From the NCBI GenBank assembly GCA_964479875.1, contig CAYZNM010000016.1:412-64411 (forward strand): a stretch of DNA of 64,000 bases. Reading direction: 5' to 3'. The notes beneath the pieces were generated by a model that worked only from the letters and a program-made list of their open reading frames with translations, was not told where the DNA came from and ran no database searches. Position numbers and translations under genes: made by a program. Origin of the DNA: an uncultured Eubacteriales bacterium (GTDB lineage Bacteria; Bacillota; Clostridia; Monoglobales; CAYZNM01). Shown here piece after piece: positions 51,410 through 60,730 of this stretch (position 1 is the stretch's first letter; every line of letters begins with the position of its first letter).

Positions 51410-52174
51410 CTACTGCATATTCCAGCCTGCGCGGTTTATGTTAACTATGCTCTGCTTCAAGCACTGCATAGGCGAAAACGCAGGGCAGTCGTCGACCTCA
51501 ACGAAAGCATACTTCACGCCTGCACCCTCGCACGCAAACAAAATCTCTTCCCAGCACAAATTCCCCTCAAGAATCGGCACAGGAGTGTTCACTCCGTCGA
51601 TAACAGCCACATCTTTAAAGTGGCACACATCAACCCTGCCACGCAGCATTTCAAACTGCCGCACGACATTCCTTCCGCCTAACTGCGTCCAATATGTGTC
51701 AAGCGTAAACCCCATAAGCTCCGGCGCAGTTTCATCGGCCAAAATATCAAGCATAACCCTTTTGCACAGCTTCTCATACTCGAACGCGTGATTGTGATAA
51801 TAAAACTTCATACCCTTTTCCGCAATCAAATTCATAGCGGGTGTAAAATCAGCTATAAATCCACGCACGGCCTCAATCGAGCCGCGATACATATCCGGCA
51901 TCGCACCAAGCCCAATGCGCTTGCAGCCGATAACCTCATGCTCCGCAATCAGATTCTTTGTATCCTCCAAAATCCGCTGCGGCGAATTATGCGTAAGCTC
52001 AATCTTAAGTCCGTATCTATCCGCGCATTCCCTCAAAAAAGCAGGCTCATACGTAAAGCCCGAGGCCTGAATCGCAGTATAACCCATCTCGGCAATTTTC
52101 TTTAGTGACTCGTCGATCCCTTCGTCAGATTGCATTAATGCTCTCACAGTATAGCATTGTGCACCTAAAACCAT
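51410..52174 (-). CDS. Sugar-phosphate isomerase/epimerase (IolE-like TIM barrel)
   Basis: GAQCYTVR, YHNHAFEY, LDTYW and CHFKD motifs. Confidence 0.88.
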   Translation of the reverse strand: MVLGAQCYTVRALMQSDEGIDESLKKIAEMGYTAIQASGFTYEPAFLRECADRYGLKIELTHNSPQRILEDTKNLIAEHEVIGCKRIGLGAMPDMYRGSIEAVRGFIADFTPAMNLIAEKGMKFYYHNHAFEYEKLCKRVMLDILADETAPELMGFTLDTYWTQLGGRNVVRQFEMLRGRVDVCHFKDVAVIDGVNTPVPILEGNLCWEEILFACEGAGVKYAFVEVDDCPAFSPMQCLKQSIVNINRAGWNMQ

Positions 52175-52184
52175 TCTGCCTCCG

Positions 52185-53471
52185 TTACATCTCGCCCTCT
52201 TTATAAACAGAAAAGCTGTTTCTGCCGCTTTTCTTAGCGTTGTACAACGCCTTGTCGGCGAACTCTATATACTTTTGTTCGGTTTCCTTGTTGCTCGATT
52301 CCGGTACGCCGGAGTATATCCCTTGCGATACGCTGACATAATGCCCGGCCGTGCTGAATTCATGTGGAATGAACAGGTTGTTTATCGTATTCTTTATCTT
52401 TTCCGCAACGTATTTTGCTCCCCATATATCTGTATTCGACAGCAGTACAATTATTTCCTCGCCGCCGTACCTGCACACGATGTCTGTATTCTGCCGCAGC
52501 ACTGATGAAACTACCTTTGAAATCTTTATCAGCACCTCATCACCCTGCTGATGTCCGTAGTGGTCGTTGTAATTCTTAAAGCAGTCCACGTCAATCATTA
52601 TCGCAGACAGCGGAACATGCTTTCGGTAATGCTCGCGCACAAGACGCGGCAATACGTTGTCGAGGAATCGCCTGTTGTTCAGGGTCGTCAACGGGTCGGT
52701 ATTGGCTTCCTCGCTGCTTCTGCGGTATTTTTTAAGGTATATTATAATGTATGCGACCGTTAGAACGATAGTAGGCAGCAAATAAACAAATGTAAAGGCG
52801 TTGCGGATATTCGCAGTGTGGCTCTGGAAGCCTTCAAAATAAATGTCAACTCCGAGCATTCCCACAAACGTTCCTTCGACGGTGTAAAAAGGAACAAGCC
52901 CTGTAAAGGCGTGACCATATTCGTCGTTCGTGACAACGTAGGTTGTTTTTCGCGCATCATAAGCTGCGATATCCCCGCCGCGCATTAAGGAGTATCTGTT
53001 TACATCATCATAATACCCCGGATTATTCTCCGCTTCATAACGCTCATCTGAATTAATAATAACATCTGTCAGCCAAAAAAGATTGAGAGGTGTACCTGCG
53101 GGAGCCATGTAGTGGCCTGCTGTCGATTCATCTACATAATACTTAATCTCGTCGCCGTTCAGCTTTTGCATTATATAGGTATATTTAAAGTCCTGGCTGT
53201 AGCTTCCGCCTTCGAAAAGCTTGTTTAAGCGAACGTTCGCAGGGTGCTTGCGAACATCGTCAAACGGAAGCGCGCGAAGCTCCTCCACCTCGCTGTCGGT
53301 CAGGTAATAGCTGCGCGACGCAATCTCGGCAATATCCATAGCCTTTGTGCCAAGCGTCTTGTAATACTCGCTCGTAACCCAACCTGTAATTTGATATATT
53401 GTATAAACGCCAATTGCAATATACAGAAGTATCGCAATAAACAGCAGTTGATACTGTATTTTTTTTAACAT
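52185..53471 (-). CDS. Membrane-anchored diguanylate cyclase (extracellular sensor + GGDEF)
   Basis: Start MLKKIQY; two TMs flanking an extracellular domain; DPLT.LNNRR, MIDVDCFK.YND.YGH..GD, RYGGEEI and ADKALY.AK.SGRN. Confidence 0.92.
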   Translation of the reverse strand: MLKKIQYQLLFIAILLYIAIGVYTIYQITGWVTSEYYKTLGTKAMDIAEIASRSYYLTDSEVEELRALPFDDVRKHPANVRLNKLFEGGSYSQDFKYTYIMQKLNGDEIKYYVDESTAGHYMAPAGTPLNLFWLTDVIINSDERYEAENNPGYYDDVNRYSLMRGGDIAAYDARKTTYVVTNDEYGHAFTGLVPFYTVEGTFVGMLGVDIYFEGFQSHTANIRNAFTFVYLLPTIVLTVAYIIIYLKKYRRSSEEANTDPLTTLNNRRFLDNVLPRLVREHYRKHVPLSAIMIDVDCFKNYNDHYGHQQGDEVLIKISKVVSSVLRQNTDIVCRYGGEEIIVLLSNTDIWGAKYVAEKIKNTINNLFIPHEFSTAGHYVSVSQGIYSGVPESSNKETEQKYIEFADKALYNAKKSGRNSFSVYKEGEM

Positions 53472-53581
53472 ACCCTTGCTCCCTCGATTATGTATACAGA
53501 AGCGGCGGCCCCGTAGTACAATTTTGTTAACGATTGATAAACTCGATATATTATAGTCAAAGCCATTTATAAACGTGAGCA

Positions 53582-53654
53582 AGTCAATCGCGTTTCTTTG
53601 ATTATACCTGCATCCGTCTTAATTCTGTAGTCACGGAGTGAAACGCGATTGACT
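53582..53654. repeat. 73-bp palindromic element, copy A
   Basis: AGTCAATCGCGTTTC-N43-GAAACGCGATTGACT; homologous to 57938-58010 and 58359-58431. Confidence 0.85.
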
Positions 53655-53713
53655 ATATATGCAAGCGTTAATCTATTTTCGTGCGCGGGCGAACTCAAGT
53701 CCGCCCATTTTAT

Positions 53714-55585
53714 CTAAAACAAATACTTAACTCGTTCACTGCCTAAAAACACACACAGAATGCGGGAGATGTAGTTTAAGGCCGCCATTTCCTCTGCGTG
53801 CCACATGCGTTTTGTTGTGCAATCATCAAAGCCGATGAAGCCTCGTATTTCGCCTTTGTGGAAAAAGGCGCACTGCAATATCGACTTAATTCCTTGCTCT
53901 TGCAATGCGGAAGATGTTAGTTCGTCCAGCGTTGCAATGTCGTTGCAGCAAAATGTTCCGTCCTCGTTATAATGTTTATACAAGTGTCCTATATATTCAA
54001 CAGGCACATTTTGCAGATGCTTGATAAAAGGTTCGATGCCCTTTTTGCACCACTCGTATGTGTTGCTTATGGTTTTATTGTCGTCGGAATGCTCGAATAT
54101 ATAGCAACGGTCTACGTTATACCTAGTGCCAAGAATAGTTAGCACCATGTTAACCGTGGTGTAAATATCCTTTGTTTCATAAAGCATTTCAAATACATTG
54201 TAGATTAAATCGTCGGCATAATAGCTTGCTACAAAACGTTCCAACTGCTCATGCGTCGTCGCGTCATTGCTTATGAAGCATCTGTCGTTGCCGCTGTATA
54301 TAGTGAAGCAGTCCTTGCCCTTGCTTTTTGACTGATACAGCGCGCTGTCCGATATGCGGTACAGCGAATCGAAATCCCTCGCGTGTTGCGGACATAGCGC
54401 TATGCCTACGCTGCCGGAAATTTTATACTCATTGTGCTCGCCGGAGAATGTACGGCGGAATGCGTCGGTTATAGCTTTTGCTTTTTCGGCAATTATCGTT
54501 TCGGATTTTGTGTTGCGAAGGAAAACTACAAATTCATCGCCGCCTATGCGTCCGATGATGTCGCTGTCCCTGAAAATTCCCTTAAGCTTTTGCGCAACGT
54601 CGACAAGAACGCCGTCGCCGAATTGATGCCCAAGCGTGTCGTTTACCCCTTTGAAGTTGTCGATGTCCACCAGCATCAGGGCTGCGTTTTCGCCTTCATC
54701 CATTTCCGCAATGTACTTCTCGATTCTAACTCGAGTTTCTTCTTTATTATATAGCTTTGTCAATGGGTCGGCTTCGGCCTTGCGCGTAAGCTTTGCGATG
54801 TACTGCTTGTGCTGCGTCACGTCGACCATCTTGCCTATTACGCGCACAGGCGTGTTGTTTTCGTCGAACAAGGTGTGATAATATAAGGTATACCACGCGT
54901 CAGAGCCATCCGGAAGCTTTAGGCGTATCTCCTCGCCCATGGATTGGTTCTTATTTAATCTGCTGTAGTTTCCGGCGAAAAATGCTTTGCTCTCGTCGGA
55001 TATAACGTCTAGGTTAATAATCGAGTTGGGGTAGTCGTCGTACACCTCGTTGATGTTAAACCGCTGCGCGATATTTTTGGAAAAAGATACGCGGCGGCGT
55101 GAGATATCCAGGTCGAAAATCGCGTCGTTTGTAAGGCTTACAATAATGTCGTTATATTCCTGCTGTTTCTTTAATTCTTCTACCAACCCAACATGTTTAG
55201 TTATGTCCACGATGAGGTAACATATTTGTTTCTCGCCCTGTTTGTTATCTACAATCCTTCCGCTGAAGTGTACCCAATTGTAGCCCTTGCTTTTGTTGGC
55301 AAGCCTTGCTTGTATGCTAAAAAAGCCGTCCCGCAGCGTTTGCTCTGCAAATGTGCGAAGCCCATCGGCTATATCATCGGGGTGCAGCGTCAGAACCCCT
55401 TTGTTCTCGTACTTCTCGTACAATTCTTCCTTTGAATATCCAACTAAATCAAAATATCCTTTATTGGCGTGAGTTATCGTAAAGCTCTCATCAGCCTTAG
55501 AAATAAGTATACCCCCGGGGATCGAGGCATTCACAATATCAATATCCTCAAGGTCTTTAACCAATAATTCCTTGTGCTCTTTCAT
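53714..55585 (-). CDS. PAS-PAS-GGDEF-GAF diguanylate cyclase
   Basis: LHPDD PAS, DPLTKLYNK, DIDNFK.VND.LGH..GD, RDSD I-site and RIGGDEF; C-terminal GAF (DRCYIFE, GFIGFDDC). Confidence 0.92.
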   Translation of the reverse strand: MKEHKELLVKDLEDIDIVNASIPGGILISKADESFTITHANKGYFDLVGYSKEELYEKYENKGVLTLHPDDIADGLRTFAEQTLRDGFFSIQARLANKSKGYNWVHFSGRIVDNKQGEKQICYLIVDITKHVGLVEELKKQQEYNDIIVSLTNDAIFDLDISRRRVSFSKNIAQRFNINEVYDDYPNSIINLDVISDESKAFFAGNYSRLNKNQSMGEEIRLKLPDGSDAWYTLYYHTLFDENNTPVRVIGKMVDVTQHKQYIAKLTRKAEADPLTKLYNKEETRVRIEKYIAEMDEGENAALMLVDIDNFKGVNDTLGHQFGDGVLVDVAQKLKGIFRDSDIIGRIGGDEFVVFLRNTKSETIIAEKAKAITDAFRRTFSGEHNEYKISGSVGIALCPQHARDFDSLYRISDSALYQSKSKGKDCFTIYSGNDRCFISNDATTHEQLERFVASYYADDLIYNVFEMLYETKDIYTTVNMVLTILGTRYNVDRCYIFEHSDDNKTISNTYEWCKKGIEPFIKHLQNVPVEYIGHLYKHYNEDGTFCCNDIATLDELTSSALQEQGIKSILQCAFFHKGEIRGFIGFDDCTTKRMWHAEEMAALNYISRILCVFLGSERVKYLF

Positions 55586-55898
55586 CCTTCACCAGCTCCA
55601 AACTTTATAAACCTTGCGTTGATATAAATTCTTCATTTATATGGTAAATACCTTCTATAAGTATATAAACAGTATCACTAAAGTTTTTACTTATTCTCGT
55701 AAATTTATACCATTTATTACAAAATTTTACTAATAGAGTTATCATGTCTATTATACCACAACCTACAAAAATAATCAATGGTATATTTGTGGTATTGTTT
55801 AAAAAGGCTAAAAATCACACAAAAAAGTTTATCATGAATTTTGGTTGAAAATATAAGCTTCCTATGCTATAGTATTAATACCAAAGGGAGGGGATAAA

Positions 55899-56726
55899 AT
55901 GTCAGACATTATTACAGGGTGGGAGTTTCATAAGAGGTCGCATTTTGACGAAATTGTTGAAAACTACGACAAGGCGCGTCCGCGTTATCCAAGCGAGTTG
56001 TTCGAGGATATTTTCAAGTATGTGAGTGAGGCTGATGGCAAAAGGGCTCTTGAGATTGGCGCAGGGACTGGGAAGGCGACCGCTCCTATATTGGACGCAG
56101 GGTATGATGTGACGGCAGTGGAGCTTGGCGCGAATATGGCAGAGTTTTTGACAGAAAGGTTTAAGGGGAACAGCAGCTTCAACGTAATTGTCGACTCATT
56201 CGAGAACGTACCGCTGGAGGATGAAAGCTATGACTTGATATATGCAGGCTCTGCCTTCCATTGGGTCGAAGCCGAGATAGGCTGCCCCAAGGCTTTGCGC
56301 CTGCTGAAAAGCGGCGGCGCGATTGCGCTTTTCCGCTACAACATAGACCCTGCCGACGGCGAAGAGCTTTATGAGGAAATCCAATCAATCTATCGAAAGC
56401 ATTACTGTACCTATTACACGTCGAATGAAAGGCGGTCGAAAAAATCACGCGAAGACTTCCAAACACCCTCCGGGATTTATACTGGATTCAGGTTCGAGGA
56501 TTTAAGGGCGTACGGCTTTAGAGATGTGACGATGAAGTTTTACGATGTGAGCCGAATGTACAGCGCGGACGAGTATATCGCCTATATCGACACAATGGCT
56601 GACCACAGGGGCTTGCCTGATGAGAATAGGGCGGCGCTGTACGCGGGAGTGAAGGAAGCTATAATAAAGCACGGCGGGCATTTCAAAATTGACTTCATTT
56701 TCCAGCTGTATATCGGTAGGAAGTAG
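55899..56726 (+). CDS. Class I SAM-dependent methyltransferase
   Basis: FDEIVENYDKARP.YP, LEIGAGTGKAT and YDLIYAGSAFHW. Confidence 0.9.
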   Translation: MSDIITGWEFHKRSHFDEIVENYDKARPRYPSELFEDIFKYVSEADGKRALEIGAGTGKATAPILDAGYDVTAVELGANMAEFLTERFKGNSSFNVIVDSFENVPLEDESYDLIYAGSAFHWVEAEIGCPKALRLLKSGGAIALFRYNIDPADGEELYEEIQSIYRKHYCTYYTSNERRSKKSREDFQTPSGIYTGFRFEDLRAYGFRDVTMKFYDVSRMYSADEYIAYIDTMADHRGLPDENRAALYAGVKEAIIKHGGHFKIDFIFQLYIGRK

Positions 56727-56817
56727 GCTGATTTGCATTCTTGCATAATCTTGCAACAATTGCACGGAAATGCCGTTCGCACTCTGCTATACTGTAGTTA
56801 AAGGGGGGGATATATAC

Positions 56818-57690
56818 ATGGACTGGATACAACGTATGAACAACGCTATGGAGTACATCGAGCAGCACCTGCAAGATAAGATGGACTATGAAGCATTGGC
56901 GCAGTCGGCGTGCTGCTCTGCCTATCACTTTCAGCGTATGTTTTCGGCGATTGCGGACATTCCGCTGTCGGAATATATACGCCGCCGCAAGATGACTGCC
57001 GCCGCATTCGAGCTACAAAGCTGCGACGTCAAGGTCGTCGACGTTGCGTTAAAGTTCGGCTACGACTCGCCCGAGGCATTCACGCGCGCGTTCACGCAGA
57101 TGCACGGCATAACGCCGTCGAACGCACGCAAGGCCGGCGTCGTAATCAAAGCCTATCCGCGCATGTCCTTCCAACTCACTATCAAGGGGGATACAGAGAT
57201 GAACTACAGAATCGTGCAAAAGCCCGCATTTCAATTGTACGGAATCGAACGCATATTCGATACCAAGGACGGCAAGAACTTAATCGACGTGCCAAACTTC
57301 TGGCAGGAGATAATGAGCAACGGTGAGTTTGAAAAATTAGCAAAGTCATGCGACTTCCCATCGACCGCGCAAGCCATATGCGACTATCGCCCAATAGGCG
57401 GCGAACAGTTTGTGTACATGATAGGCTGCATGAAAACGCCGCTGTCCAACACCGACGGGTACACTGTCGTTGACATACCCGCGTCCACATGGGCAATCTT
57501 CAAGAACGAGCCGCACACCATCGAGGAAACTTCAAAAGAAACCCAAAGCTTAATCCGCCGCATTTACACTGATTGGCTGCCCACGGCTAACTACGACAAG
57601 GTAGATAGTTTTGAGCTGGAGCTATACTATGACACAACGGACGGACGCTTCTATGAGGAAGCGTGGGTTCGCGTGCAGCCTAAAGCTTAA
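56818..57690 (+). CDS. AraC-family regulator with GyrI-like effector-binding domain
   Basis: Start MDWIQRMNNAMEYIE after GGGGGGA; S.YHFQRMF, EYIRRRKM, GYDSPEAFTRAF...HG.TP and C-terminal IYTDWLP..ELY. Confidence 0.92.
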   Translation: MDWIQRMNNAMEYIEQHLQDKMDYEALAQSACCSAYHFQRMFSAIADIPLSEYIRRRKMTAAAFELQSCDVKVVDVALKFGYDSPEAFTRAFTQMHGITPSNARKAGVVIKAYPRMSFQLTIKGDTEMNYRIVQKPAFQLYGIERIFDTKDGKNLIDVPNFWQEIMSNGEFEKLAKSCDFPSTAQAICDYRPIGGEQFVYMIGCMKTPLSNTDGYTVVDIPASTWAIFKNEPHTIEETSKETQSLIRRIYTDWLPTANYDKVDSFELELYYDTTDGRFYEEAWVRVQPKA

Positions 57691-57694
57691 TAGC

Positions 57695-57732
57695 AAACAC
57701 CCTTCACCGCAAATATGGTGAAGGGTGTTTTT
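57695..57732 (+). terminator. Rho-independent terminator after AraC gene
   Basis: AAACACCCTTCACC-N8-GGTGAAGGGTGTTT followed by T residues. Confidence 0.8.
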
Positions 57733-57937
57733 GCCAAAAAGCCGCCGTCATTCATTACCATTGAGCACAGCATAAGTTTTGCAGCAACATCATCTATAAA
57801 TTATTTTGGTGTATCTTAAACGAAATTCATGCCTTTACATAGCCGACTTCTTCCAATTTTACCATATTAATTCAATTACGGCTCGATAAAAAGCTTTGCA
57901 AATTCAGCATACTCAAACAACTTTAAAACAATCTGCT

Positions 57938-58010
57938 AGTCAATCACGTTTCCTTGATTATATCAGCATTTGTCGCACTTCTGATGTAATTGAATGAAAC
58001 GTGATTGACT
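57938..58010. repeat. 73-bp palindromic element, copy C
   Basis: AGTCAATCACGTTTC-N43-GAAACGTGATTGACT, with a compensatory G-C to A-T change relative to copy A. Confidence 0.85.
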
Positions 58011-58339
58011 ATATTAAGGTTATTTGAACGTATAAAATGCCACAAATCGTCCAGCCCTATAACAATCTCACCCTTCAGCCCTTGCTTGCGTCCGTTTGTT
58101 TTAGCGTACTTTCTAATCCAGCGCATAATTGTAGACGGGTGCACATGCAATATACCGCCGATTACTGCAAAAGACAGCCCAAAGCAGTAAAGCAAAACAG
58201 CGACTTGCTCCTCCTGCGCGGTATGCCTTCCGTGCTCGCTGATAAATTGGTGCTTGCATTCTTTGCAGAGATAACACTGCTGCCCTTCACGCTTCCCGTT
58301 CTTTTTTATTTGCTGCGACCCGCACCGTTTACATTTCAT
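57944..58339 (-). pseudogene. IS1-family transposase remnant (InsA-like zinc ribbon + HTH, catalytic part missing)
   Basis: CKRCGS...KNG..EGQQCYLCKECKHQF, HTH (LSFAVIGGILHVHPSTIMRWI), then LDDLWHFI resembling the start of the DDE region; ORF ends inside repeat copy C. Confidence 0.7.
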
Positions 58340-58358
58340 AACATCACCTCATCAATAT

Positions 58359-58431
58359 AGTCAATCGCTTTTCGTTCCGCGACTATAAAACTACGACAAG
58401 CACAGACATAATCAAGGAAACGCGATTGACT
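58359..58431. repeat. 73-bp palindromic element, copy B (inverted relative to A and C)
   Basis: AGTCAATCGCTTTTC-N43-GAAACGCGATTGACT; its reverse complement aligns without gaps to A and C. Confidence 0.85.
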
Positions 58432-58511
58432 TGCACACGCTTTTAAATCGCCTCAACTATACTATAACACGCCGGAATAAGTTTTGCAATAGGGATTTAT
58501 GAAAAAAAGAC

Positions 58512-58540
58512 TTGCATTCGCTTTTGCTTTATGCTATAAT
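58512..58540 (+). promoter_or_regulatory. tRNA operon promoter
   Basis: TTGCAT (58512-58517), 17 bp, TG-N-TATAAT (58535-58540). Confidence 0.7.
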
Positions 58541-58558
58541 ACTAAATGTCGAAAGCAA

Positions 58559-58650
58559 GGAGAGATGGCTGAGTTGGTCGAAGGTGCACGATTGGAAATC
58601 GTGTGTGCGTTAATAGCGTACCGAGGGTTCGAATCCCTCTCTCTCCGCCA
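58559..58650 (+). tRNA. tRNA-Ser (GGA)
   Basis: GGAGAGA acceptor stem, anticodon arm CACGA-TTGGAAA-TCGTG, long variable arm, GGTTCGAATCC T-loop, encoded CCA. Confidence 0.95.
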
Positions 58651-58729
58651 GTTTTCACTTTATGCAAAAGCAATTTTGCACACACAAAATAATTGCAACA
58701 TTTTTACAACAATTTAATAAACAACACAC

Positions 58730-58820
58730 GGAGAGGTACCCAAGCAGGTGAAGGGGACGGTTTGCTAAACCGTTAGGTCGGGTAACTGGCGCGAGGGTTC
58801 GAATCCCTCTCTCTCCGCCA
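58730..58820 (+). tRNA. tRNA-Ser (GCT)
   Basis: Anticodon arm ACGGT-TTGCTAA-ACCGT, long variable arm, T-loop, encoded CCA. Confidence 0.95.
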
Positions 58821-58824
58821 ACAC

Positions 58825-58867
58825 AAAACGCTCAAATTTGCAAATACTGCGGATTTGGGCGTTTTTT
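58825..58867 (+). terminator. Terminator after tRNA genes
   Basis: AAAACGCTCAAATTTGCA-N5-TGCGGATTTGGGCGTTTTTT hairpin with G-U pairs. Confidence 0.7.
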
Positions 58868-59013
58868 ACATATAACCCCAAATATCTATATCAAGCAGCA
58901 ACTGATGATAAACTTCTGTCTTGCCAACAAACTTGTACTAACAAGTCTGGAGGTGAAACAGAAGTTTTTTGCATTTATCAACCTAATTAACCCATTGAAA
59001 GGATTATCTTATC

Positions 59014-59802
59014 ATGCCTAACACAAATATCATAGCTATATGTAATCAAAAAGGCGGCGTAGGGAAAACCACCACAACCGCCAACCTCGGAATCGGTCTT
59101 GCCCGAAAAGGCAAACGCATCTTGCTCATAGACGCAGATGCCCAAGGCTCACTGACAATAAGCCTTGGGCATAGACAACCGGATAAAATACCAACGACAC
59201 TCGCAACGGTCTTAGGTAAACTCTTAACCGACACCAACATTATACCATATGAAGGGATACTACGCCATGATGAGGGCGTAGACTTAATGCCTGCAAATAT
59301 AGAGCTGTCGGGGATAGAAGTATCGCTTGTCAACGTGATGAGTAGGGAAACCATACTCAAGCAGTATATTGATATGGTTAAGAACGAGTACGACTACATC
59401 ATCATCGACTGTATGCCATCGCTCAGTATGCTGACCATCAACGCACTTGCCGCTGCTGATAGTGTTATCATTCCTGTGCAAGCGCAGTATCTACCTGTCA
59501 AGGGATTGGAGCAGTTGCTGCATACCATAGGTAAAGTACGCCGTCAGATTAACCCTAAGCTAACCATAAACGGCATACTGCTCACGATGGTTGACAACCG
59601 CACTAACTACGCAAAGGACATTATCTCGCTACTTAACGATACCTACGGTGATAAACTCCGCATATATACAAACAGCATACCTCTCTCAGTACGTGCCGCA
59701 GAAATCAGCGTAGAAGGCAAAAGCATCTACGCACACGACCCAAATGGTAAAGTTGCCGCTGCCTACGAATCCTTAACACAGGAGGTACTCGGCAATGCTT
59801 AA
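59014..59802 (+). CDS. parA: ParA/Soj family ATPase
   Basis: Deviant Walker A NQKGGVGKTTT, LIDAD.QGSLT, DYIIIDCMPSL and NALAAAD. Confidence 0.94.
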   Translation: MPNTNIIAICNQKGGVGKTTTTANLGIGLARKGKRILLIDADAQGSLTISLGHRQPDKIPTTLATVLGKLLTDTNIIPYEGILRHDEGVDLMPANIELSGIEVSLVNVMSRETILKQYIDMVKNEYDYIIIDCMPSLSMLTINALAAADSVIIPVQAQYLPVKGLEQLLHTIGKVRRQINPKLTINGILLTMVDNRTNYAKDIISLLNDTYGDKLRIYTNSIPLSVRAAEISVEGKSIYAHDPNGKVAAAYESLTQEVLGNA

Positions 59803-60730
59803 ACGAAGCAGTGTTGCTGATATAAAGCTGTCCTCCTTTGATGATTTACTCAATGCAAGCGATACAAGAGAGAGTGTGCTTGACATACCCATATCCGAAC
59901 TACACCCATTTGCCAATCACCCGTTCAAGGTGACAGACGATGACGCAATGCATGACACCGCCGACAGTATCGCAAAATACGGCGTACTCGTTCCGGCAAT
60001 CGCACGACCACGTGAGGACGGCGGGTATGAACTCATAGCCGGACACAGACGTAAACGCGCGAGTGAGCTTGCGGGTTTACTAACCATGCCTGTAATCGTG
60101 CGCGAGCTTGATGATGATGAAGCCACCGTCATCATGGTTGACAGCAATCTACAACGTGAAACTCTGCTGTTCAGCGAGAAAGCGTTTGCGTACAAGATGA
60201 AGTTGGAAGCTATGAAGCGGCAGACGGGTAGACCGTCCAAAGATAATGTGTCCCAACTTGGGACACAAAAACGTTCCGACCAACTTTTAGCAGAACAAAC
60301 AGGTGAAAGCCGTAATCAAATCCAACGTTACATTCGCCTTACCTCACTCACTTCCTCTCTACTCGACATGGTAGACGAACGCCGCATAGCCTTCAACCCC
60401 GCCGTAGAGCTATCCTACTTATCTCACGAGGAACAGTCGTGGCTACTATGTGCCATAGAATCCGAACAGGCTACTCCTTCTCTGTCACAGGCACAACGTA
60501 TGAAGAAATTCTCACAGGACGGCAAACTGTCCGAAGATATGATACTCGCCATACTGTCTGAAGAAAAGAAGGAAACAACGAAGGTAACATTCACAGGCAG
60601 CAAGCTGAAACGATACTTCCCTTCCTCCTACACGCCGCGACAGATGGAAGATACCATCATCGCCCTGCTCGAAGGTTGGGCGAATCAGCAGAACGCAGAT
60701 AATCGCACCATTGACAAAGACGCTCACTGA
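59795..60730 (+). CDS. parB: ParB/RepB/Spo0J family partition protein
   Basis: HPF.NHPFKV, SI..YGVL.P...R.R..GGYELIAGHRRKRA and MVDSNLQRE..LFSEKAFAYKMK. Confidence 0.92.
   Translation: MLKRSSVADIKLSSFDDLLNASDTRESVLDIPISELHPFANHPFKVTDDDAMHDTADSIAKYGVLVPAIARPREDGGYELIAGHRRKRASELAGLLTMPVIVRELDDDEATVIMVDSNLQRETLLFSEKAFAYKMKLEAMKRQTGRPSKDNVSQLGTQKRSDQLLAEQTGESRNQIQRYIRLTSLTSSLLDMVDERRIAFNPAVELSYLSHEEQSWLLCAIESEQATPSLSQAQRMKKFSQDGKLSEDMILAILSEEKKETTKVTFTGSKLKRYFPSSYTPRQMEDTIIALLEGWANQQNADNRTIDKDAH

What the first reader, a model, noticed from the sequence alone, without database searches (positions are those of the whole stretch)
53582..58431. Unexplained 73-bp fixed-length palindromic element (3 copies) with compensatory changes, bracketing an IS1 remnant and a gene block
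Seen: copies at 53582-53654 (A), 57938-58010 (C) and 58359-58431 (B, inverted). Each has 15-bp terminal inverted repeats (AGTCAATCRCGTTTC…GAAACGYGATTGACT) around exactly 43 nt that align without gaps (yTTGATTATr…GTC…), with constant flanks GCW on one side and ATAT on the other. Copy C has a paired G-C to A-T change in both arms. In A and B an inner stem (TGATTATR/TRTAGTCR) keeps pairing through G-T variation on one strand only, with an asymmetric bulge. B and C flank the IS1-like remnant in inverted orientation, and its ORF ends inside C. A and C are direct repeats around the PAS-GGDEF, methyltransferase and AraC genes. Inference: a structured ssDNA/RNA element such as a MITE, a long REP-like HUH substrate or an attC-like recombination site that could capture, invert or excise cassettes. 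I do not recognise it as a named family.
Basis: partly seen in the sequence, partly recalled or inferred. Interest (0 to 1): 0.72.

Follow-up and report, generated by a model that had tools for sequence, protein, structure and literature searches.

The report
New 107-bp MITE family, TA duplication
The three 73-bp palindromes are the cores of a small gene-less jumping element (a MITE, like RUP of pneumococcus or the Correia repeats of Neisseria) with about 100 copies in this uncultured gut Clostridia genome; it is a real, apparently unnamed family, but an ordinary kind of element.

Summary
The three copies exist as described, but the real unit is an oriented 107-nt element, not 73 bp. It reads TA, then a 102-bp core (TAGTCAA…29-nt left extension…15-bp arm, 43-nt loop, 15-bp arm…TTGACTA), then TA and T. 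The 2.72-Mb assembly holds 94 full and about 15 partial or short copies, and every full copy is intergenic.

Copies are flanked by a 2-bp (possibly 3-bp) direct duplication, consensus TA(T). Rare flank variants match on both sides (GA/GA, CA/CA, TG/TG; permutation p ≤ 2e-5). One copy sits inside another, and removing it plus one TA restores the host copy's 43-nt loop.

No copy turned up in the sister species, 151 genomes of the order, the pattern-scanned species and metagenome collections, or BLAST of phages and plasmids. There is no Rfam match.

I read it as a MITE moved in trans by a TA-duplicating cut-and-paste transposase. That enzyme is not in the assembly. The IS1 fragment is a victim of insertion, not the parent. 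The REP/RAYT, attC and "cassette capture" readings are not supported. The arms covary strictly and are 4–6 times better conserved than the rest of the element. The inner stem is not conserved genome-wide. It is a new member of a known kind, of modest interest.

The parts
53552..53658 (+). MITE copy A, full 107-nt unit. TA (53552-53553), 102-bp core (53554-53655), TA (53656-53657), T. The palindrome is 53582-53654, with arms at 53582-53596 and 53640-53654.
   Evidence: Belongs to a 7-copy subfamily. It lies between the 3' end of the PAS-GGDEF gene (53714-55585, -) and the start of the next GGDEF gene.
57908..58014 (+). MITE copy C, full unit. Left flank CA (57908-57909), core 57910-58011, right TA (58012-58013), T. 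The palindrome is 57938-58010 and has the A:T variant of arm pair 39/95.
   Evidence: largest subfamily, 30 copies. Its right end abuts codon 108 of the IS1 fragment. The flanks are discordant (CA vs TA). That fits either a later mutation or a recombination or deletion event.
58355..58461 (-). MITE copy B, full unit on the minus strand. The palindrome is 58359-58431. Its right end (…GACTATAT) lies 15 nt upstream of the ATG of the IS1 fragment, just before the ribosome-binding site GAGGTG.
   Evidence: 13-copy subfamily. TA flanks on both sides.
58015..58339 (-). N-terminal 108 codons of an IS1-family transposase (zinc finger, HTH, first DDE aspartate region). It is cut off by copy C. The open frame continues to 57944 inside C.
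   Evidence: ORF 57944-58339. (NF033558 positions 1-109 of 199, E = 1.8e-21). (unique in the genome; no continuation beyond C).
53714..57690 (.). Ordinary gene block between A and C: PAS-GGDEF-GAF protein, class I methyltransferase, and AraC/GyrI-like regulator. It is not part of the element.
   Evidence: There is no evidence that it moves with the flanking copies.

Best explanation
The element is a non-autonomous miniature inverted-repeat transposable element (MITE). The mobile core is 102 bp. Its tips are short inverted repeats, TAGTCAA and TTGACTA. Inside the core, a 15-bp sequence (AGTCAATCGCGTTTC) 29 nt from the left tip is the exact inverted copy of the right end. The left tip region is a degenerate third copy of the same motif (TAGTCAAnnnnnTTT).

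Shown here: the element is dispersed in about 100 copies, it inserts at TA and duplicates it, and it can insert into another copy of itself.

Inferred: a cut-and-paste DDE transposase that makes 2-bp staggered cuts at TA (IS630/Tc1-mariner-like) binds the arm motif and moves the element in trans. The arms stay conserved because only elements with intact binding sites keep moving. Many copies lie in operon spacers or just upstream of ribosome-binding sites, so they are probably co-transcribed as a long hairpin, as RUP and Correia elements are.

Copies B and C are independent insertions into an IS1-family element, which they helped to destroy. Copy A is a third independent insertion.
For: - **Copy number and boundaries:** there are 94 full and 15 partial copies, and 77 of 94 are exactly 107 nt.
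- **Location:** all 94 are intergenic in a genome that is 88% coding by a crude gene call. In 16 copies a neighbouring gene's stop codon lies inside an element end. About 18 copies have their right end 6-27 nt before a start codon.
- **Target duplication:** non-consensus flanks agree on both sides (GA/GA, CA/CA, TG/TG). Permutation gives p = 2e-5 for 3 nt and 0 of 100,000 shuffles for 2 nt. No longer duplication exists.
- **Nested insertion:** the copy at C17:55460-55566 lies inside another copy. Removing the 102-bp core plus one TA restores a 107-nt host copy with a 43-nt loop.
- **Short forms:** 77-nt versions (palindrome only) are also flanked by TA.
- **Non-coding:** the consensus has stops in all six frames.
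- **Lineage-specific:** no copy was found in the sister species. The orthologous spacer upstream of alr is 39 nt there against 137 nt here. It is also absent from 151 genomes of the order. Pattern scans of the genome, metagenome and viral collections and BLAST of phages and plasmids found nothing.
- **No RNA family:** there is no Rfam match.
- **Arms behave as DNA-level symmetric sites:** 97% are Watson-Crick pairs, five pairs show double changes, and G:T (11) is about equal to A:C (15).
- **Literature:** bacterial MITEs are under 200 bp, have TIRs, 5'-TA-3' termini, target duplications and long stem-loops. RUP is 107 bp, has 108 intergenic copies, targets TA and inserts into IS transposase genes (PMC2229807).
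Against: - No partner transposase was found. The assembly has no IS630-type DDE_3, no NF033545 hit above noise and no rve. No gene is bracketed by the element's ends.
- No filled/empty polymorphism within the species could be shown. The four runs that hold the organism come from one study and carry the same allele, and Logan contigs break at the repeat.
- About a third of copies have discordant flanks.
- No two copies are more than 97% identical, so there is no sign of very recent activity.
- The outer left tip, which should be a transposition end, is no better conserved than the loop. The arms are 4-6 times better conserved even on terminal branches. That could point to a host-level constraint rather than transposase binding.
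Confidence: 0.8

Rival explanations
1. The element began as a MITE, but its palindrome arms are now kept by the host. They would act as a protein-binding site or as an mRNA hairpin, for example an RNase III site or a stabiliser in operon spacers and 5' leaders. On this reading the copies are no longer mobile.
For: The arms are 4-6 times less diverged than the loop and extension, even on terminal branches. No transposase is in the assembly. No two copies exceed 97% identity. Many copies lie in operon spacers or directly before ribosome-binding sites. The sense-strand RNA fold is more stable than the antisense fold in 83 of 94 copies.
Against: Arm mismatches show no G:U tolerance (G:T 11 vs A:C 15), which an RNA hairpin under selection should show. 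The sense/antisense difference follows from an inherited G+T-rich loop and so is not independent evidence. Inner-stem pairs change at about the neutral rate. There is no orientation bias relative to genes (57 vs 37 and 56 vs 37). Cut-and-paste turnover with loss of old copies can also give conserved binding sites on terminal branches. The assembly is a 95% complete MAG with unassembled IS interiors.
Confidence: 0.12
2. It is a long REP/REPIN-like element moved as single-stranded DNA by the genome's RAYT-like HUH tyrosine transposase.
For: One REP-associated tyrosine-transposase-like gene exists at C10:96375-96911 (NF047646, E = 1.7e-17, below cut-off). The element is a strong hairpin. The arms covary strictly.
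Against: Flanking duplications are present and statistically supported, and HUH transposition makes none. The RAYT-like gene is not flanked by the element. The genome has a separate REP-like family with a GTAG head (GTAGGGGCGC, 61 heads) that fits REP definitions far better. The stem is 15 bp with a 43-nt loop, unlike 20-40-nt REPs.
Confidence: 0.04
3. B and C are the two ends of an IS1-family insertion sequence with an internal deletion, and the dispersed copies are solo ends of that IS.
For: B and C flank the IS1 transposase fragment in inverted orientation with their outer (left) tips pointing outwards. B ends 15 nt before the transposase ATG, as an IS left end would.
Against: B and C belong to different subfamilies. 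They are only 74% complementary and differ in the arm pair 39/95. Each 107-nt unit transposes on its own with a 2-bp duplication, not the 8-9 bp I recall for classical IS1. The IS1 gene is unique in the genome. About 18 other genes have the element's right end in the same position before their ribosome-binding site.
Confidence: 0.03
4. It is an attC-like or other site-specific recombination site that captures, inverts or excises the bracketed genes.
For: It is an imperfect palindrome of attC-like length. Direct copies A and C bracket three genes, and inverted copies B and C bracket the IS1 fragment.
Against: The ends are TAGTCAA and TTGACTA, not the attC core sites. About 100 copies are scattered singly across the genome. 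No excision or inversion junction with adequate support was seen; the joints have sides under 30 nt or come from other copies. The target duplications point to transposition.
Confidence: 0.01

Closest known systems
RUP (repeat unit of pneumococcus), Streptococcus pneumoniae; proposed to be moved by IS630-Spn1 (Oggioni and Claverys 1999, as reviewed in PMC2229807)
   Same: Both are 107 bp, with about 100 intergenic copies in a Firmicute genome of 2-3 Mb. Both have short terminal inverted repeats, a TA target with duplication, and stops in all reading frames. Both insert into IS transposase genes; here copy C cuts an IS1-family gene.
   Different: There is no sequence similarity: arm-pattern scans of 185,579 species genomes found nothing. 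No IS630-type partner with matching ends was found here. This element has a perfect 15-bp subterminal/terminal palindrome with strict covariation and a one-sided 29-nt extension. The copies here are old (mean pairwise identity 76%), whereas RUP copies are highly conserved.
Correia / NEMIS / CREE elements of Neisseria
   Same: Both are about 107 bp (Correia also has a 155-bp form) and begin TA-TAG…. Both have a TA duplication and a long hairpin when transcribed. Both often abut genes and are co-transcribed. Both are orphans, in that no transposase is known.
   Different: Correia has 24-26-bp terminal repeats and an IHF site. It occurs in Proteobacteria and has no sequence relation to this element. 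Here the best-conserved repeat is subterminal on the left side.
Nezha and other IS630/Tc1-mariner-derived prokaryotic MITEs
   Same: Both have a TA target-site duplication and tips of the YAGT type after the TA (the tip comparison is from my own knowledge, not tested here).
   Different: Those families were linked to an IS630-family element by matching ends. No such element was found in this assembly.
REP/REPIN-RAYT systems
   Same: Both are dispersed intergenic palindromes, and the genome has a RAYT-like gene.
   Different: This element has a target duplication, a long loop and no GTAG head, and the RAYT-like gene is not flanked by it. A different repeat family in this genome fits REP better.

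Membership tests
Bacterial MITE (criteria as in Delihas 2008, PMC2229807) | Small (<200 bp) and non-coding | tested here: met
   The unit is 107 nt, and the consensus has stops in all six frames.
Bacterial MITE (criteria as in Delihas 2008, PMC2229807) | Terminal inverted repeats, with 5'-TA-3' at the termini | tested here: met
   The tips are TA|TAGTCAA … TTGACTA|TA in the 94-copy alignment. The left tip is less conserved than the right.
Bacterial MITE (criteria as in Delihas 2008, PMC2229807) | Target-site duplication | tested here: met
   Variant flanks are concordant (permutation p ≤ 2e-5). The nested insertion restores its host copy when one TA is removed.
Bacterial MITE (criteria as in Delihas 2008, PMC2229807) | Many dispersed copies; filled and empty sites | tested here: inconclusive
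   There are about 109 copies. The two orthologous spacers that could be aligned in the sister species lack the element, but they are too diverged to show the exact empty site. No polymorphism within the species was available.
IS630/Tc1-mariner-derived MITE | TA target duplicated to TA on both sides | tested here: met
   The consensus is TA on both sides. A 3-bp TAT duplication cannot be excluded.
IS630/Tc1-mariner-derived MITE | Ends match those of an IS630-family IS, and a DDE_3 transposase is present | tested here: not met
   There is no PF13358 hit and no NF033545 hit above noise. The assembly is 95% complete, and the interiors of at least two multi-copy ISs are missing, so absence is not proven.
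REP/REPIN with RAYT | Insertion without target duplication; short palindrome with a conserved GTAG-type head | tested here: not met
   A duplication is present. The stem is 15 bp with a 43-nt loop and has no GTAG head.
REP/REPIN with RAYT | RAYT gene flanked by the repeats | tested here: not met
   The RAYT-like gene at C10:96375-96911 has no copy in its flanks. The nearest copies are 1.7 kb away, beyond two genes.
IS1 family ends | 8-9-bp duplication, with ends bracketing an IS1 transposase in several copies | tested here: not met
   No flank identity beyond 2-3 nt. The IS1 fragment is unique in the genome. B and C are from different subfamilies.
Integron attC | R''/L''-L'/R' core sites (GTTRRRY type) and a linked integron integrase | tested here: not met
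   The ends read TAGTCAA and TTGACTA, and the copies are scattered singly. No search for an integrase gene was run.
Any Rfam RNA family | Covariance-model match | tested here: not met
   There is no match at E ≤ 1 over 52000-60500 apart from the two tRNAs and chance hits elsewhere.

The most novel reading that the evidence does not exclude
The palindrome arms may not be merely transposase-binding sites. Three observations suggest this. They are 4-6 times better conserved than the rest of the element on terminal branches. Paired changes seem to recur on the tree, with only about 2 of 94 intermediates at the main variable pair. And no DDE partner is present in the assembly. These could mean one of two things. 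The element may propagate through a snap-back (hairpin) intermediate in which one arm is copied from the other, using an enzyme not yet recognised. Or the arms may have been taken over by the host as a binding site or RNA-processing hairpin at about 100 intergenic sites.
Probability: 0.12. Interest if true: 0.6.

Novelty: new member of a known kind. Interest (0 to 1): 0.3.

Why it matters
The element accounts for a conspicuous repeat in this genome. Two other first-stage notes on another window of the same genome describe the same family. About 100 intergenic sites in an uncultured gut Clostridia species carry an insertion that is probably co-transcribed as a hairpin. In 16 cases the insertion supplies a gene's stop codon, and in about 18 it sits just before a ribosome-binding site. 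It therefore needs to be taken into account in annotation, operon prediction and assembly of this lineage.

Scientifically it adds one more orphan TA-duplicating MITE, like Correia, whose transposase is unknown. Its unusually strict arm covariation gives a concrete handle for finding the protein that recognises it. It does not open a new category of element.

Tried and rejected
- **Rfam:** a scan of the region found no family.
- **Exact-pattern scans:** Genome contigs (twice), metagenome contigs (twice) and viral contigs gave nothing. BLAST against phages and plasmids gave nothing.
- **Partner transposase in the assembly:** DDE_3, NF033545 and rve gave no hits. Y1_Tnp gave one RAYT-like gene that is not linked to the element. 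A search for extra arm-like sites bracketing a gene gave only chance matches.
- **Contig ends:** two multi-copy ISs with unrelated ends (AGAACYTGTATTCATAAGC with TNA flanks; GGTCSTGTTCGTAAAC with TA flanks) are collapsed in the assembly. Their interiors could not be recovered, so they remain untested as helpers.
- **Read evidence for excision or inversion:** the Logan contigs of the four runs break inside the repeats, and the few joints have short sides or come from other copies. A loose end at 58001 leads to sequence not in the MAG and could not be followed.
- **Empty-site search in the sister species:** sixteen joined-flank queries gave only five HSPs and two usable syntenic loci, both lacking the element but too diverged for base-level empty sites.
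- **Consensus inner stem:** RNAalifold finds none in the 43-nt loop on either strand. The register-133 quasi-palindrome is not protected from change.
- **Four-bp TATA duplication with GTCAA/TTGAC ends:** rejected. It would leave the nested insertion's host copy with a 45-nt loop, and it does not explain the GA/GA flanks.
- **Promoter function:** no convincing consensus promoter lies inside the element. The ends carry TTGACT facing outwards and TATAGT facing inwards, which I only note.


Full report
**1. The observation**

Each has 15-bp arms around exactly 43 nt: A at 53582-53654 (+), C at 57938-58010 (+) and B at 58359-58431 (-). The similarity reaches further than reported. A and B align over 112 nt and A and C over 106 nt.

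I laid the whole assembly in the Python box. It is 2.72 Mb in 34 contigs, and the window is C16:412-64411. Iterative nhmmer then found 109 non-overlapping members, of which 94 are full length. Aligning the 94 copies with their flanks shows conservation starting sharply at TATAGTCAA and ending sharply at GATTGACTATAT. Seventy-seven copies are exactly 107 nt, and all but five of the rest differ by one.

The consensus is TATAGTCAAAGAACTTTAAAACCGTGTGC-TAGTCAATCGCGTTTC-(43 nt)-GAAACGCGATTGACTA-TAT. In the window the full units are A 53552-53658, C 57908-58014 and B 58355-58461 (minus strand).

**2. Where the copies lie**

I used a crude gene call (ATG-started ORFs of at least 90 aa, resolved greedily; 88% of the genome coding). 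By that call all 94 full copies are intergenic.

- There is no orientation preference. On the right-end side the neighbour is a gene start in 57 copies and a gene end in 37. On the left-end side the figures are 56 and 37.
- Many copies fill the whole spacer between genes. In 16 a neighbour's stop codon lies inside an element end, because the ends contain TAG in both orientations.
- In about 18 copies the right end lies 6-27 nt before a start codon, directly ahead of the ribosome-binding site.
- The consensus has stops in all six frames and is 40% G+C, against 48% for the genome.

**3. Evidence that it transposes, and how**

Three lines of evidence bear on this.

*Flanking duplication.* The two bases outside TAGTC… on the left and outside …GACTA on the right are TA in most copies. 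When they differ from TA they tend to differ in the same way on both sides (GA/GA, CA/CA, TG/TG). None of 100,000 shuffles reached the observed concordance for 2 nt, and p = 2e-5 for 3 nt. Identity does not extend further out. The duplication is therefore 2 bp, consensus TA. The conserved T after the right TA means a 3-bp TAT duplication cannot be excluded; the third position is concordant only once.

*A nested copy.* One copy (C17:55460-55566, minus) lies inside the loop of another. Removing its 102-bp core plus one TA rebuilds a 107-nt host copy with exactly the family's 43-nt loop.

*Short forms.* Two 77-nt forms consisting of the palindrome alone (C4:27505-27582, C23:28220-28296) are also flanked by TA. 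This suggests that the inner left arm can also serve as an end.

A 2-bp TA duplication is the signature of IS630/Tc1-mariner-type cut-and-paste transposases. It excludes the 8-9 bp that I recall for classical IS1, and it argues against HUH (IS200/RAYT) mechanisms, which make no duplication.

**4. Structure and covariation**

- **The arms.** They occupy positions 31-45 and 89-103 of the unit and are Watson-Crick paired in about 97% of cells. Five pairs show changes on both sides. The main one is G:C in 52 copies, A:T in 36 and T:A in 4, with only two unpaired intermediates. Small subfamilies carry multi-base coordinated variants such as AGTCATTTTCGTTTC / GAAACGAAAATGACT.
- **No strand bias in arm mismatches.** G:T occurs 11 times and A:C 15 times. 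The constraint therefore looks like DNA-level symmetry rather than an RNA hairpin on one strand.
- **The 43-nt loop.** It has no consensus structure on either strand.
- **Sense versus antisense folding.** Sense-strand RNA folds are more stable than antisense folds in 83 of 94 copies. This follows from an inherited G+T-rich loop and so is not independent evidence. On terminal branches, inner pairs are lost at about the neutral rate, with a weak excess of G:T over A:C (15 vs 6).
- **Arm conservation.** Even on terminal branches the arms change 4-6 times more slowly than the loop and the left extension (1.4-1.5% vs 5.5% by the nearest-neighbour test; 1.5-2% vs 10% against subfamily consensus; p down to 1e-44). 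The outer left tip is no better conserved than the loop.
- **My reading.** I take the arms to be the protein-binding sites of a lineage that stayed mobile. A host-level role cannot be excluded. The paired change at 39/95 appears several times on a poorly resolved tree. I leave that unexplained.

**5. Age and distribution**

Mean pairwise identity is 76%. The median nearest-neighbour identity is 90% and the maximum is 97%. There are about 30 clusters, the largest with 30, 13 and 7 copies. C, B and A fall in these three respectively.

No copy of the family was found outside this assembly in any of these searches:

- the only other species of the genus;
- 151 genomes of the order;
- 185,579 species genomes, the JGI metagenomes and the viral contigs, by arm pattern;
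- phage and plasmid records.

At two syntenic loci the sister species has no element. For example, the spacer before the alanine racemase gene is 39 nt there and 18 + 107 + 12 nt here. The organism is an uncultured gut bacterium. It is present at 10-20x depth in four gut metagenomes from one study, all carrying the same allele.

**6. The partner transposase**

None was found.

- The assembly has no IS630-type DDE_3, no NF033545 hit above noise and no rve domain.
- No gene is bracketed by arm-like sites.
- One REP-associated tyrosine-transposase-like gene exists at C10:96375-96911. It is not flanked by this element. The genome also has a separate REP-like family with a GTAG head (61 GTAGGGGCGC motifs), which is its more natural partner.
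- Many contig ends are the collapsed ends of at least two multi-copy ISs whose interiors are not in the assembly. One has TNA flanks and the other TA flanks. Absence of a helper is therefore not proven.

**7. The IS1 remnant and the 'bracketing'**

The ORF at 57944-58339 (minus) matches the IS1-family transposase model over positions 1-109 of 199. It is unique in the genome and does not continue beyond C.

B and C come from different subfamilies and are only 74% complementary. They are therefore separate insertions, not the two ends of one IS. B sits before the transposase's ribosome-binding site in the same way as copies before about 18 other genes. C cuts the gene, and its discordant flanks (CA vs TA) fit a later deletion or recombination.

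Insertion of a MITE into IS genes is also described for RUP (PMC2229807). A and C flanking the GGDEF-methyltransferase-AraC block looks like ordinary dispersal with mild local clustering: 22 gaps of 5 kb or less against 14 expected. No excision or inversion junction with adequate support was seen.

**8. Comparison with known elements, and verdict**

By the criteria summarised by Delihas (PMC2229807), the element meets four MITE features. It is small and non-coding, it has terminal inverted repeats with TA termini, it makes a target duplication, and it has many intergenic copies. A fifth feature, a long stem-loop when transcribed, is only predicted from RNA folds of the window copies; transcription itself was not shown.

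Its nearest analogues are RUP (107 bp, 108 copies, TA target, hits IS genes) and Correia (about 107 bp, TA-TAG… ends, orphan). It shares no sequence with anything searched. It fails the tested features of REP/RAYT, IS1 ends, attC and Rfam families.

It is a new, apparently unnamed family of a well-known kind. Earlier notes of this scan list several other MITE families in gut Clostridia, and two first-stage notes describe this same family in another window of this genome.

The points of some interest are the strict arm covariation and arm conservation, the asymmetric architecture with a degenerate outer left site, and the missing transposase.

Noticed in passing
Genome contig C10:96375-96911 (not in the window); REP-like heads in the window at about 48248 and 49336 (C16:48659 and 49747): A single-copy REP-associated tyrosine-transposase-like gene (NF047646, E = 1.7e-17, below cut-off) overlaps by 4 nt the start of the downstream 329-aa ORF. 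The genome also has a separate REP-like repeat family with a GTAGGGGCGC head (61 motif hits). The gene is not flanked by either repeat family.
   Followed up: partly
Ends of many contigs, e.g. C1 left, C4 both ends, C5 both ends, C18 both ends, C28 both ends: Contig ends cluster into groups that share about 50 nt. One pair of ends, …GCTTATGAATACA(A/G)GTTC, is followed by TTA, TAA or TGA (12 + 14 ends; IS5-like TNA duplication). Another pair, …TTTACGAACA(C/G)GACC, is followed by TA (6 + 3 ends). These are multi-copy ISs whose interiors are missing from the assembly. At C21's right end the second IS has inserted into a copy of the MITE.
   Followed up: partly
C11:32351-32520 and C2:115218-115369: Two MITE copies carry the same type of G+C-rich insert of about 50-65 nt (…GCACGCAAAACCGCTCGCCACC…GGCGAGCCGCTGTGCC…) in their loop. 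This is either a compound subfamily or a second small element nested in the first.
   Followed up: no
C2:263626-263699 and C4:4408-4503: These are divergent relatives in which both arms have changed together over several bases (TCATTCTCGTTTC/GAAACGAGAATGA and AGTCATTTTTGTTTC/GAAACAAAAATGACT), while GTTTC…GAAAC and the loop length are kept.
   Followed up: no
window 58559-58647 and 58730-58817: Two tandem tRNA genes with identical 29-nt 3' parts lie directly beside copy B. They are followed by parA/parB-like genes (59014-60730). The MITE/IS1 cluster thus lies next to a tRNA locus.
   Followed up: no
Arm pair at positions 39/95 of the 107-nt unit, genome-wide: The G:C to A:T paired change needs about 16 changes on a tree built from the non-arm columns (34 for shuffled labels), with only two unpaired intermediates among 94 copies. 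This suggests either recombination between subfamilies or a mechanism that copies one arm onto the other. The tree is poorly resolved.
   Followed up: partly
window 58001 (runs X2 and X4): One Logan contig in each of two runs joins the last 14 nt of a C-like right arm to sequence (…TAATTTTGCAAGTTTTGTGCTAATTAATGG) that is absent from the assembly. It may be a copy in the unassembled 5% or in another strain.
   Followed up: partly
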